From assembly GCF_048403405.1 (NCBI RefSeq), contig NZ_CP183129.1: a DNA stretch of 64,000 nucleotides; one strand, written 5' to 3'. Source of the stretch: Escherichia coli. Lineage in GTDB: Bacteria; Pseudomonadota; Gammaproteobacteria; Enterobacterales; Enterobacteriaceae. Numbering within the stretch: the first letter of the stretch is position 1; the number at the start of each line of letters is the position of its first letter. Below, piece after piece: positions 55,701-58,700 of this stretch. A program made the position numbers.

Positions 55701-58700
55701 TATCACCTGCTGCCATATTGACAATTTGTCGCTGAGCTGTTGTGTTACCCACAGAAACAGTATCCGCGTCAGTCGCTACAGAACCAGCACCCAGAGCAAC
55801 TGAATTTTTCCCCTGAGCACTGGCTTGAGCACCAATTGCAGTGCCATTTTCTAAACCGGCATAACTGCCTTGTCCAAGAGCAATAGCATTTACACCACCT
55901 GTAATACTACCATTACCCAGCGCGATAGCATTTGCGCCGTCAGCTTTATTCCCTTGACCGATGGCAATTGCGCCAGCCGCTACTGCCTGACTTTGATTGC
56001 CCAGAGCAATCGTGTTGTCGACATCTGCAATACTGCCGGAGCCCAACGCGATACTATTAAGTCCATTTGCCTCCGCGTTAGTACCAACTGCCGTCGCATT
56101 TTCAGCAGCTTTGCTCTCTGCACCCATAGCAATCGCGTTTGCGGCGCTGGCGGCGGATTGTCTGCCGAATGCGAGGCTGTCTACGCCAGCTGCAGCACTG
56201 TTGCGGCCTACTGCAATCGCGTTAGCTGCAGATGCGGCGCTACTTGCACCCAGCGCCATTGCATATTCTTTCGACGCATTAGCCGTGGCTCCGAGGGCGA
56301 TACTCATAATTCCTAAGGCCTTGCTTTCACGTCCAAATGCGATGGCGTCATCAGCACCAGTCTCTGCGTGATCCCCTTGTGCAATAGAAAATTCACCTAC
56401 TGAGTTCGCATAACGACCAAGTGCGATTGAAAATCCACCCGTTGACGTTGCCGATGCACCTATAGCGAGGCTTCGCTCACCTGCTGAGGTAGTGTTAATC
56501 CCTAACGCCACTGATGCTTCGCCAAGCGAATGGGTCTTAGCACCGAGGGCTGTTGACCACCTTCCGTCAGCAGTTGAGTGATAACCTACTGCGGTGCTGG
56601 AGCCACCCCCGGTGTCTGTAAAACTATTTGCTTTTGCATCTTCACCGATAGCAACCCAGCCTGTTCCTGTTCCCTGGCCATAATTGACGCCCTGACCGTT
56701 GTCCCTTCCTGCCTGAGCCTGTACCCCAAACGACGACAACATTCCCCCAGCAACCAGGGCAGAAATTAACAGCTTACTGCGCCCGGATTTCTTGCCACGG
56801 CTTTTTGCCGTTTCGCTGGCAACGCTGTAACTGCCCGTCGCTGGATTCCAGATAACTTTAAAAATTTTGTTCATTATTGATGCTCTCTATTCCTTGATAT
56901 AAGCGCAGAAGCTGCATTTATTTTTTGTTTTTTCGCTGCCGAGTTTCAGCAGGTTGAACAGTGTCGAACTGGAGATTGGCCATATTGATGGACAACTTCA
57001 GATACTTCAGGTTATTAGGCGAAACGCCTTTTAATGTCAGATTAATGTCTTGCCATTGACCAGGCATTAATTGCAGAGTGGAATTCAGGGTGGTGTTGAA
57101 AAGTAATTGTTGCCACTTTGCCAGAGCTTTGGCATCGGCGGGTCTTTCATTGCCCCATGTCGCATGAAAGCCAATATTTGATACGGGAACGCTTAAAAGA
57201 TTAACCAGCGAAATACGAATAACACTGCCATTTTCCACCGCATCAATAGCCAGCACCCGGCCTGCCAAACCGACCGATCCGTTATTTATAATGAAGTATT
57301 GTGTTTGTGCTGGGTTAAATTCTGTAAAGACAAATTCGTCCTGCTTGTCTTTAACCGCTTTCACCACGCCAGCGAGCGTCTTGGTACTATTTATGACAGT
57401 AGTTTGTTGTTTTTCAAAATGTTCTATCTTGCGCTTATCGAGTTCCTGCTGTTTCTCAAGCGCCTCAATTTTGCTTTTTTGCAACTCTTGCTGTGTAACG
57501 AGTTCGTCGACCTTACTCGCTTTTTCAATATAGTCACACCCTGCCAATAAGCAGAGAGGCACTATTATTAACACGCTTAACAGTGTTTTCTTTAGGTTCA
57601 TAGGATGAATTCCTTTTCATAATCCCGATACGTTGATAATTACAGTACAATCATTTTTTTTATGAATGATTAGAGTGGGGCATATCCGCCAAATAAATTT
57701 GTTAGAGAATTTTTGTATTAATGGGTTGTGCGAATATGTTTTTAAGTGTCAAACAATTTTAGTTTGTAGCCAATAAATAAATTGATCGCGCGGATTTTAA
57801 TGATCGGTGTCAATCAATGTCAAATGTTTCACCGGATAAAGGCCCGGGGCAGGGAAAGATAAATATTCAGTTGAGTGATGTTTTATTGCGAATTTTGCGA
57901 TGCTGATAGAAAAATTTAAATAATTAATTATGTTTCAAGCATTGATATGCGGCAATTCATTGTTAATATTGATACATCATTCTTTAATTTGTACCTGATT
58001 TTCAGAATTTAGCCTGCTCCGGGCGCTCAGAAGTGTAGGTGGAGTTAAATATATAATGTTAAGAACGTTATAAATATTCGATCTCTACAACAGGCTCCTG
58101 CATGTGCCAGCAGGAGCGAGTAAATCGTGAGTGGCTGTAATTACAGCGACGAGAAAGGAACTTAAAACGCAGTCTTAGAGAACCCTGTCATCTCTTGTAG
58201 GCCCATTTCGCGGCCCAGCGCGGTCATTGGGTGCACAACGACCAGTCCGCGAACGCTCTTCTTCAGTTTGCCCATATCAGCTTGCTCTTTTTTAGTAATC
58301 GCGCGCTGGAACGGCATCTTCATCAGCTTCTGTGCTTCCTTACTGAGTTTCTGGCTGTGAACTTCGCGCAGGCGAGCAATTTCTGCTTCCAGAGTGGCTT
58401 TCTCTTTTTCCAGTTCAGCATATTTGTCTGCGGCTTCAACCAGCGACAGATCGGCCTGCTGGTGGCGGATGGCGTCCAGGCGATCGCTGAGACGTTTGAT
58501 TTCGTTTTTTTCGACTTCTTTCATGTGATGGCTTCTGATAAAGATAAATTTATAGCCCCTAGTATGCGCGACCAGGTGCTTTGTTCACAACTGATGACAT
58601 TGCAATAGTTCTATAACGTAAACATTAACATGCTTAAAAACTACGCAATTTATTGATTAATTAAGAAATTTAAAGAAAAAAGATAGTTAATAGAAACGGA

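What the first reader, a model, noticed from the sequence alone, without database searches (positions are those of the whole stretch)
57602..58161. 560-bp AT-rich non-coding region upstream of the adhesin operon
No ORF of 60 aa or more on either strand; the sequence is strongly AT-rich with many A/T tracts and ends in a perfect 14-bp palindrome GCTGTAATTACAGC (58134-58147) next to the yibL stop. Long AT-rich leaders upstream of horizontally acquired adhesins are typical targets of H-NS silencing and complex regulation.
Basis: partly seen in the sequence, partly recalled or inferred. Interest (0 to 1): 0.3.

Follow-up and report, generated by a model that had tools for sequence, protein, structure and literature searches.

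The report
Silenced promoter region of adhesin operon
This 560-bp AT-rich gap in an E. coli chromosome is the ordinary control region of the sadB-upaG adhesin operon: it holds the tail of the upstream gene yibL, one well-conserved promoter and a long leader, and close relatives of it are already reported to be repressed by H-NS.

Summary
Window 57602-58161 is non-coding and 35% G+C, and it lies between yibL and a SadB-type lipoprotein gene that precedes a UpaG/EhaG/SadA-type trimeric autotransporter adhesin. The 14-bp palindrome is at chance level (3 in the window against 4.3 expected) and is not conserved in other alleles.

Sixteen orthologous intergenic regions were compared, from E. coli alleles, four other Escherichia species, a Salmonella lineage and Pseudocitrobacter. 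They share three features:
- a G+C-rich stem-loop just after yibL;
- one strongly conserved sigma-70 promoter (-35 TTGACA 57823-57818, 18 nt, -10 TAAAAT 57799-57794), giving a leader of about 185 nt;
- an unexplained invariant block, ATTCTGAAAA (58008-57999), 173-186 bp upstream of the -35.

I found no sRNA, no conserved small ORF and no mobile-element signature.

The locus is ancestral and K-12 has deleted it, so it is not a recent horizontal acquisition. H-NS control was not tested here. It is published for upaG/ehaG, and the window's region is about 93-96% identical to that of CFT073, where TosR overexpression induces the sadB homologue.

Verdict: an ordinary, essentially known regulatory region of low interest. 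The one open point is the conserved upstream block.

The parts
58162..58524 (-). yibL CDS (DUF2810, ribosome-associated protein), the upstream neighbour. Its stop codon is the right edge of the finding.
   Evidence: ORF list; Pfam DUF2810 at E 6e-32; RefSeq annotation of an identical locus.
58134..58147 (.). Perfect 14-bp palindrome GCTGTAATTACAGC in the yibL 3' untranslated stretch. Judged a chance feature.
   Evidence: Sequence. There are 3 such palindromes in the window against 4.3 expected. It is not conserved in other alleles.
58094..58117 (-). yibL 3' stem-loop GCUCCUGC-N8-GCAGGAGC (8 bp, -15.4 kcal/mol), with a weak U tail (CUGUUGUAGAG). Probably a yibL terminator or 3'-end stabiliser.
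   Evidence: Fold of 58060-58170 gives z = -3.68. Every orthologous region has a G+C-rich stem-loop 10-45 nt after the yibL stop, with different sequences. P. vendiensis keeps the stem through a change on both sides, CTGC/GCAG to CTGT/ACAG. The consensus terminator scan found none.
57999..58008 (-). Invariant block ATTCTGAAAA (consensus AWTCYGAAAA), the most conserved 10-mer of the whole region. It lies 185 bp upstream of the -35. Function unknown; a candidate regulator site.
   Evidence: Column conservation 0.94 against a region mean of 0.63, sd 0.11. Present in 15 of 16 orthologous regions at 173-186 bp from the -35, absent in P. cyperus and duplicated in E. albertii. No match above chance to 13 transcription-factor consensus sequences that I recalled from memory.
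57862..57871 (-). Secondary conserved patch ACTGAATATT, about 40 bp upstream of the -35.
   Evidence: Conservation 0.76; alignment A5.
57818..57823 (-). -35 hexamer TTGACA of the predicted sadB-adhesin promoter.
   Evidence: Best promoter-like site in the scan, 11 of 12 matches. TTTGAC is invariant in all 12 aligned orthologues. A position-weight scan places the top sense-strand hit at the same alignment columns in all 12.
57794..57799 (-). -10 hexamer TAAAAT, 18-nt spacer. Orthologues have TAGAAT, TAGCAT or TAACAT.
57787..57793 (-). G+C-rich stretch CCGCGCG between the -10 and the predicted transcription start (G57787 or A57786).
   Evidence: Sequence. Kept as CCGCGCG, TCGCGCG or CGCGCGC in most Escherichia-type and two Pseudocitrobacter alleles, but not in 55989, E. 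fergusonii or the Salmonella lineage. The start site is inferred, not mapped.
57602..57786 (-). Predicted 5' leader of about 185 nt, with several conserved patches (for example GCTACAAACT 57770-57761) and no exceptional overall structure.
   Evidence: Fold z = -0.45; conservation profile; no Rfam match; no conserved small ORF.
57648..57672 (-). AT-rich leader hairpin UAAUCAUU-N9-AAUGAUUG, 47-71 nt upstream of the start codon.
   Evidence: Present in both the MFE and centroid structures. Analogous hairpins occur in the O25:H4, Escherichia sp. E1V33, P. vendiensis and P. corydidari alleles, and as TTATT/AATAA in E. marmotae. Support is modest.
57610..57615 (-). Shine-Dalgarno AAGGAA, 8 nt before the sadB ATG (57601-57599).
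   Evidence: Sequence; AAGGA is conserved in most orthologues.
56918..57601 (-). SadB/YajI-family inner-membrane lipoprotein gene, the first gene of the operon.
   Evidence: PDB 4C47 (Salmonella SadB) at E 1.5e-70 over residues 23-227. RefSeq names are 'DUF3251' or 'SadB/YajI family lipoprotein'.
51646..56874 (-). Trimeric autotransporter adhesin of UpaG/EhaG/SadA type (1742 aa), 43 bp downstream of sadB.
   Evidence: ORF list. Annotated as a YadA-like family protein, with UpaG at the same position in CFT073. The terminator after it (51587-51601) is the one that follows yibL in K-12.

Best explanation
The 560 bp are the control region of the sadB-upaG (sadBA-type) adhesin operon and hold no gene of their own. 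Read on the minus strand they contain, in order:
1. The yibL 3' untranslated stretch, ending in a G+C-rich stem-loop (58117-58094) that ends or stabilises the yibL transcript.
2. About 270 bp of very AT-rich upstream DNA. It carries one invariant element, ATTCTGAAAA (58008-57999), held at a fixed distance of about 180 bp from the promoter.
3. A single near-consensus sigma-70 promoter: TTGACA, 18 nt, TAAAAT (57823-57794).
4. A leader of about 185 nt with a small AT-rich hairpin and an AAGGAA ribosome-binding site.

The strong promoter is most likely kept off under laboratory conditions because H-NS polymerises over the AT-rich DNA on both sides of it. It would be relieved by anti-silencing factors; TosR has this effect when overexpressed in CFT073.

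Shown here: the anatomy, the conservation of the promoter and the block, and the absence of a gene or known RNA. Taken from the literature: H-NS repression of UpaG, and the TosR response. Inferred: the transcription start, the H-NS binding mode, and any role for the upstream block.
For: - Gene layout and lack of ORFs.
- The best promoter-like site is on the operon strand, 11 of 12 matches.
- In alignments of 12 orthologous regions with mean column identity of only 55%, TTTGAC and the -10 are invariant or nearly so.
- The -35 and -10 regions and the ATTCTGAAAA block hold the most conserved 10-mers (0.89-0.94 against a mean of 0.63).
- An independent position-weight scan places the top sense-strand promoter at the same alignment columns in all 12.
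- The promoter is found in 16 of 16 regions and the block in 15 of 16, at 173-186 bp.
- The yibL stem-loop has z = -3.68 and a counterpart in every orthologue.
- There is no Rfam match, no conserved small ORF, no unusual leader structure, and no phage or true plasmid match.
- SadB identity. Operon and K-12 deletion: PMC3953254.
- H-NS repression of UpaG: PMC5012682 citing Totsika 2012.
- c4423, the sadB homologue directly upstream of upaG in CFT073, rises by log2 5.1 on TosR overexpression. The CFT073 region is nearly identical to the window's.
- In Salmonella, STM3690 falls 4.2-fold in a fur mutant in which hns rises 3.1-fold (PMC3212961).
Against: - No transcription start, H-NS binding or expression data exist for this sequence, and none could be produced here. 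The primary H-NS paper (Totsika 2012) is not in the library, so its promoter-level details were not seen.
- The high-affinity H-NS motif has no match with 1 mismatch or fewer in the region.
- The spacer is 18 nt, which is sub-optimal.
- The yibL stem-loop lacks a good U tract and no terminator was called, so read-through from yibL may contribute to operon transcription.
- The invariant upstream block has no assigned function, so the model is incomplete.
Confidence: 0.8

Rival explanations
1. The region hosts an unannotated small RNA or small protein gene, for example one built around the invariant ATTCTGAAAA block.
For: The block is the most conserved element of the region and has no explanation. 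The region is long for an E. coli intergenic gap. Seven ORFs of 21-38 aa overlap it.
Against: No Rfam match better than E = 2. No terminator-like site on either strand. None of the seven small ORFs keeps its frame or start outside the closest alleles. The flanks of the block are not conserved, and no conserved promoter sits beside it on either strand. The block's distance to the operon promoter (173-186 bp) is better kept than its distance to yibL (92-154 bp), as expected for a cis element of that promoter.
Confidence: 0.07
2. The region is the scar or boundary of a horizontally acquired adhesin island, AT-rich because it is foreign DNA.
For: It is AT-rich. K-12 lacks the sadB-adhesin segment, and sequence similarity stops exactly at the yibL stop codon. 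E. coli alleles of the region and of sadB are extremely divergent, with sadB DNA identities from about 70% to 100% and the intergenic region down to about 69%, which suggests allele replacement by recombination.
Against: The position, gene order and a similar intergenic length (382-560 bp) are the same in E. coli, E. marmotae, E. fergusonii, E. albertii, E. ruysiae, a Salmonella lineage and three Pseudocitrobacter species. sadB is present in 76% of complete E. coli genomes. The adhesin gene itself is 48-60% G+C. There is no integrase, tRNA, direct-repeat or IS signature at the junctions. There are no phage hits, and the two 'plasmid' hits are 4.9-Mb chromosomes filed as plasmids. Grin et al. 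describe K-12 as carrying a 5-kb deletion.
Confidence: 0.08
3. The 14-bp palindrome GCTGTAATTACAGC is an operator for a dimeric regulator that controls yibL or the adhesin operon.
For: It is a perfect dyad of operator-like length. It lies in non-coding DNA.
Against: Its frequency is at chance level. It is degraded in close alleles and absent from distant ones, while the promoter and the block stay invariant. It lies about 310 bp upstream of the promoter and downstream of yibL. It does not fit the LexA, Cra, CRP or FNR consensus better than shuffled sequence does.
Confidence: 0.03

Closest known systems
Regulatory regions of upaG (UPEC CFT073) and ehaG (EHEC), reported as H-NS-repressed (Totsika et al. 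2012, Appl Environ Microbiol 78:2179)
   Same: Same locus and same gene order, yibL - sadB homologue - adhesin - lldP. The window's region is about 93-96% identical to the CFT073 one, with an identical promoter and block. The EhaG-type region (strain 55989) keeps the same promoter, block and spacing despite very low overall identity.
   Different: The window comes from another strain; identical copies occur, for example, in CFSAN018748. Its adhesin is a different-length allele. H-NS dependence was not measured for this allele, and the primary paper could not be read here.
Salmonella sadBA operon (Grin et al. 2014, PMC3953254)
   Same: A SadB lipoprotein (4C47, E 1.5e-70) followed about 44 bp later by the adhesin, between the mtl and lld operons. 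It is silent under laboratory conditions. In the one Salmonella lineage recovered, the upstream region keeps the promoter (17-nt spacer, TAGCAT) and the block AATCTGAAAA.
   Different: The rest of the intergenic sequence cannot be aligned. The common S. Typhimurium allele was not recovered with these tools. Fur and Fnr effects are reported for STM3690 but have not been examined in E. coli.
Other H-NS-silenced adhesin promoters of E. coli (upaC, upaH, F9, auf, yqi and yfc fimbriae) and their PapB/TosR-type relief
   Same: AT-rich upstream DNA, no expression in vitro, and co-induction with auf, yqi and yfc genes when TosR is overproduced.
   Different: There is no dedicated regulator gene next to the operon, no invertible switch and no conserved GATC pair. 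The two GATC sites that flank the -10 in the window are not conserved.

Membership tests
H-NS-silenced promoter region | A/T content well above the genome average over several hundred bp | tested here: met
   G+C 0.35 over 560 bp (0.30-0.33 in the core) against 0.49 for the window; lowest 5.75% of windows.
H-NS-silenced promoter region | Presence of the high-affinity nucleation motif tCG(t/a)T(a/t)AATT (consensus recalled from Lang et al. 2007) | tested here: not met
   No match with 1 mismatch or fewer inside 57602-58161. The window as a whole has 20 against 19.6 expected, three of them in the neighbouring yibL-yibT gap. The motif is not obligatory for H-NS binding.
H-NS-silenced promoter region | H-NS occupancy (ChIP or EMSA) and de-repression in an hns mutant | not testable with these tools
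   Known only indirectly: PMC5012682 cites Totsika 2012 for H-NS repression of UpaG; TosR overexpression induces c4423 by log2 5.1; STM3690 falls when hns rises in a Salmonella fur mutant.
Sigma-70 promoter | -35 and -10 hexamers with a 16-18 nt spacer on the strand of the downstream operon | tested here: met
   TTGACA, 18 nt, TAAAAT, 11 of 12 matches. Eight sites were found in 1.3 kb against 3.1 expected; this one is the best.
Sigma-70 promoter | Conservation of the elements and their spacing in orthologous regions | tested here: met
   Top-scoring site at identical alignment columns in 12 of 12 regions and found in 16 of 16. These are among the most conserved 10-mers.
Sigma-70 promoter | Mapped transcription start site | not testable with these tools
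   No open paper with a start site for sadB, upaG or ehaG was found.
Intrinsic (Rho-independent) terminator of yibL | Stable G+C-rich hairpin shortly after the stop codon | tested here: met
   8-bp stem, -15.4 kcal/mol, fold z = -3.68, with a counterpart in all orthologues.
Intrinsic (Rho-independent) terminator of yibL | Run of U directly after the stem | tested here: not met
   The tail is CUGUUGUAGAGA and no terminator was called. A U-rich tail occurs only in some orthologues, for example P. vendiensis with AUUUUGUG.
Known RNA family (Rfam 15) | Covariance-model match | tested here: not met
   Best E-values are 2-3 to eukaryotic snoRNA/snRNA models, far below their gathering scores.
sadBA-type operon (SadB lipoprotein plus trimeric autotransporter) | SadB homologue directly upstream of a YadA-like adhesin, between the mtl and lld operons | tested here: met
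   4C47 at E 1.5e-70; 43-bp gap to the 1742-aa adhesin; synteny.
Phase-variable adhesin switch (invertible element, Dam/GATC or repeat-tract type) | Conserved flanking inverted repeats with a recombinase, or conserved GATC pairs, or a length-variable repeat tract | tested here: not met
   The only inverted repeat flanking the region is 70% complementary and has one arm inside sadB. All genome matches come as one colinear piece. The GATC sites are not conserved, and the A8 tract has the same length in the window, UTI89, CFT073 and the SCPM-O-B-8794 allele.

The most novel reading that the evidence does not exclude
The invariant element AWTCYGAAAA (58008-57999) is the docking site of a specific regulator or anti-silencer that has not yet been identified. 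It is held 173-186 bp upstream of the -35 across Escherichia, a Salmonella lineage and Pseudocitrobacter, while almost everything around it has diverged. It may act together with the related patch ACTGAATATT at 57871-57862. Finding the bound protein would reveal the natural inducing signal of the SadA/UpaG/EhaG adhesins, whose native expression conditions are still described as unknown.
Probability: 0.3. Interest if true: 0.4.

Novelty: already known. Interest (0 to 1): 0.15.

Why it matters
UpaG, EhaG and SadA are adhesins of uropathogenic and enterohaemorrhagic E. coli and of Salmonella, and they have been considered as vaccine antigens. They are silent in the laboratory, and the native inducing conditions of the Salmonella sadBA operon were described as unknown.

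The finding as written adds nothing to that picture, because H-NS control is already published. The comparison made here gives a concrete and testable map of the control region: a conserved promoter, a leader of about 185 nt, and one invariant far-upstream element. That map could guide reporter constructs and a search for the missing activator. It also corrects the idea that the operon is a recent foreign acquisition.

Tried and rejected
- Rfam scan at a permissive threshold: nothing.
- Terminator scan: none called.
- High-affinity H-NS motif: no hit in the region.
- Thirteen transcription-factor consensus sequences recalled from memory (Fur, FNR, CRP, SlyA, IHF, Lrp, ArcA, CpxR, OmpR-like, RcsAB, Fis, LexA, Cra): none better than shuffled sequence. 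By-eye comparisons of the block with sigma-E, sigma-54, sigma-32, EvgA, DeoR, ArgR, SdiA and Mar-box patterns also failed.
- Small ORFs: none conserved.
- A second promoter next to the conserved block, on either strand: none conserved.
- Leader RNA structure: z = -0.45, only a small hairpin.
- Invertible-switch, Dam or repeat-tract phase variation: not supported.
- Attempts to recover the common S. Typhimurium sadB upstream region failed. Two protein searches and a YibL look-up returned only one rare Salmonella lineage.
- The genome-contig scan returned only 8 loci because its peptide patterns were strict.
- The primary papers (Totsika 2012, Valle 2008) are not in the library.
- Phage and plasmid collections: no true match.
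Full report
**What is there.** The window is E. coli chromosome. On the minus strand the order is mtlA, mtlD, mtlR, (yibT on the plus strand), yibL (58524-58162), the 560-bp gap (58161-57602), a 227-aa lipoprotein gene (57601-56918), a 43-bp gap, a 1742-aa YadA-like trimeric autotransporter (56874-51646), then lldP. The lipoprotein matches Salmonella SadB (PDB 4C47) at E 1.5e-70. RefSeq calls it 'DUF3251' or 'SadB/YajI family lipoprotein'. This is therefore the sadBA-type operon that Grin et al. described between the mtl and lld operons (PMC3953254). In CFT073 the adhesin at this position is UpaG, and the lipoprotein gene is c4423 (C_RS20890).

**Check of the observation.** The gap has no ORF of 60 aa or more; the longest overlapping ORF is 38 aa. 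It is 35% G+C against 49% for the window, which puts it in the lowest 5.75% of 560-bp windows. It has 17.9 A/T tracts per kb against 10.7 for the window. The palindrome GCTGTAATTACAGC is at 58134-58147 as stated. However, the window holds three perfect 14-bp palindromes, and composition-preserving shuffles give 4.3 on average. The palindrome is also degraded in UTI89, CFT073 and the O25:H4 allele, and the sequence there is unrelated in the 55989/H2 alleles and in K-12. It carries no signal.

**Distribution and origin.**
- The region matches 1880 of 5426 complete E. coli genomes at about 69-100% identity.
- The sadB gene matches 4149 of 5426 genomes, at about 70-100% identity.
- Alleles diverge from the first base after the yibL stop codon.
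- K-12 lacks sadB and the adhesin. The terminator that follows yibL in K-12 is the one that follows the adhesin in the window (51587-51601). This is the 5-kb deletion that Grin et al. noted.
- The same synteny, mtlR-yibT-yibL-gap-sadB-adhesin, occurs in E. marmotae, E. fergusonii, E. albertii, E. ruysiae, Escherichia sp., one Salmonella lineage and three Pseudocitrobacter species. The gap is 382-560 bp long in all of them.
- There is no phage match. The two 'plasmid' matches are 4.9-Mb chromosomes filed as plasmids.

The locus is therefore ancestral, with highly divergent alleles, and is not a recent island.

**Anatomy from comparison.** I aligned 12 orthologous regions; mean column identity was 55%. 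Against a mean 10-mer conservation of 0.63 (sd 0.11), three places stand out:
- ATTCTGAAAA at 58008-57999 (0.94);
- the stretch around TTTGACA at 57827-57817 (0.91);
- TCATTAAAATCC at 57803-57792 (0.89).

The last two form the best sigma-70-like site found by the promoter scan: TTGACA, 18 nt, TAAAAT, 11 of 12 matches. A position-weight scan of my own, run on each orthologue separately, put the top sense-strand hit at the same alignment columns in all 12. A pattern search found the promoter in 16 of 16 regions, 193-239 nt upstream of the start codon. I infer a transcription start at about 57787/57786 and a leader of about 185 nt.

In the window and most Escherichia-type alleles the bases between the -10 and the predicted start are G+C-rich (CCGCGCG). 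This is not so in all orthologues, so I draw no conclusion from it.

The leader folds no better than shuffled sequence (z = -0.45). It contains a small AT-rich hairpin (57672-57648) that recurs in several alleles. It ends in an AAGGAA ribosome-binding site.

At the other end of the gap, an 8-bp G+C-rich stem-loop (58117-58094, fold z = -3.68) follows yibL. Every orthologue has a stable stem-loop 10-45 nt after the yibL stop, with a different sequence in each. The U tails are weak and no terminator was called. Some read-through from yibL therefore cannot be excluded.

**What is not there.**
- No Rfam family matches.
- None of the seven small ORFs is conserved.
- No conserved promoter lies next to the upstream block on either strand.
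- There is no conserved GATC pair, no length-variable repeat tract and no credible invertible element.

**The unexplained block.** AWTCYGAAAA is present in 15 of 16 regions. It is absent from the short P. cyperus region and duplicated in E. albertii. It lies 173-186 bp upstream of the -35, whereas its distance from yibL varies from 92 to 154 nt. It behaves like a cis element of the operon promoter. Thirteen consensus sequences that I recalled from memory did no better than shuffled sequence anywhere in the region. I could not assign a factor to the block.

**H-NS.** I could not test binding. The sequence is compatible with H-NS silencing because it is AT-rich on both sides of a strong promoter. 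It lacks the high-affinity motif, with no match at 1 mismatch or fewer. The literature supplies the evidence:
- H-NS is described as a repressor of UpaG, with Totsika 2012 as the source (PMC5012682).
- In CFT073, whose region is nearly identical to the window's, c4423 rises by log2 5.1 on overexpression of TosR. TosR is a PapB-family protein predicted to antagonise H-NS and Lrp silencing. Other silent adhesin operons are induced with it (PMC5956150).
- In S. Typhimurium, STM3690 falls 4.2-fold in a fur mutant in which hns rises 3.1-fold, and it is also listed as Fnr-dependent (PMC3212961).
- Grin et al. state that the native expression conditions are unknown.

**Verdict.** This is an ordinary regulatory region whose H-NS dependence is already published for near-identical alleles. 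The one item that might repay work is the invariant upstream block.

Noticed in passing
window 57999-58008 (minus strand); also L016 (E. albertii), two copies 78 bp apart: Invariant 10-mer ATTCTGAAAA (consensus AWTCYGAAAA), held 173-186 bp upstream of the operon's -35 in 15 of 16 orthologous regions. It is the most conserved element of the region and no factor could be assigned to it.
   Followed up: partly
window 58647-58676 (yibL-yibT intergenic gap, 58525-58807): Three overlapping or adjacent matches (1 mismatch or fewer) to the H-NS high-affinity motif TCGWTWAATT cluster here, in a gap as AT-rich as the finding (G+C 0.31-0.35). The finding's own region has none.
   Followed up: no
window 51587-51601 and K-12 locus L003 about 2100-2170: The terminator downstream of the adhesin in the window is the same sequence that follows yibL (after a REP-like element) in K-12. 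This fixes the K-12 deletion as running from just after the yibL stop to just after the adhesin stop.
   Followed up: partly
L005 1501-2184 (UTI89); L008 1501-2527 (strain ET650): The sadB homologue is annotated as a pseudogene with an internal stop in UTI89, and is truncated by an IS1 insertion in ET650. The operon is therefore decaying in some lineages.
   Followed up: no
window 56918-58161 compared with L004, L006 and L007: E. coli carries at least three deeply divergent allele classes of sadB and its upstream region (SadB 64-85% amino-acid identity to the window's; intergenic region about 69% identical or lower). They switch exactly at the yibL stop codon, which is consistent with allele replacement by recombination in the flanking core genes.
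   Followed up: partly
window 57746-57757, 57807-57818, 57818-57823: Three copies of TTGACA on the operon strand: the -35, a second inside the spacer 10 bp downstream, and a third in the leader at about +35, within a 12-nt direct repeat (ATTGWTTGACAC). They are conserved only in the window-type clade.
   Followed up: no
window about 12.5-13.3 kb and 27.7-33.4 kb: Other stretches with G+C of 0.36 or lower over 560 bp (minimum 0.27), lower than the finding itself. In a related strain (CFSAN018748), an integrase-bearing island and the waa LPS-core genes lie in this part of the chromosome, but that record is not colinear with the window at the same offset, so the correspondence was not established.
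   Followed up: no
window 59616-60947 (minus-strand ORF): The mechanical ORF for mtlD is 443 aa, with a long N-terminal extension over the annotated 382-aa protein. This is an artefact of taking the first in-frame start codon, not a feature.
   Followed up: no
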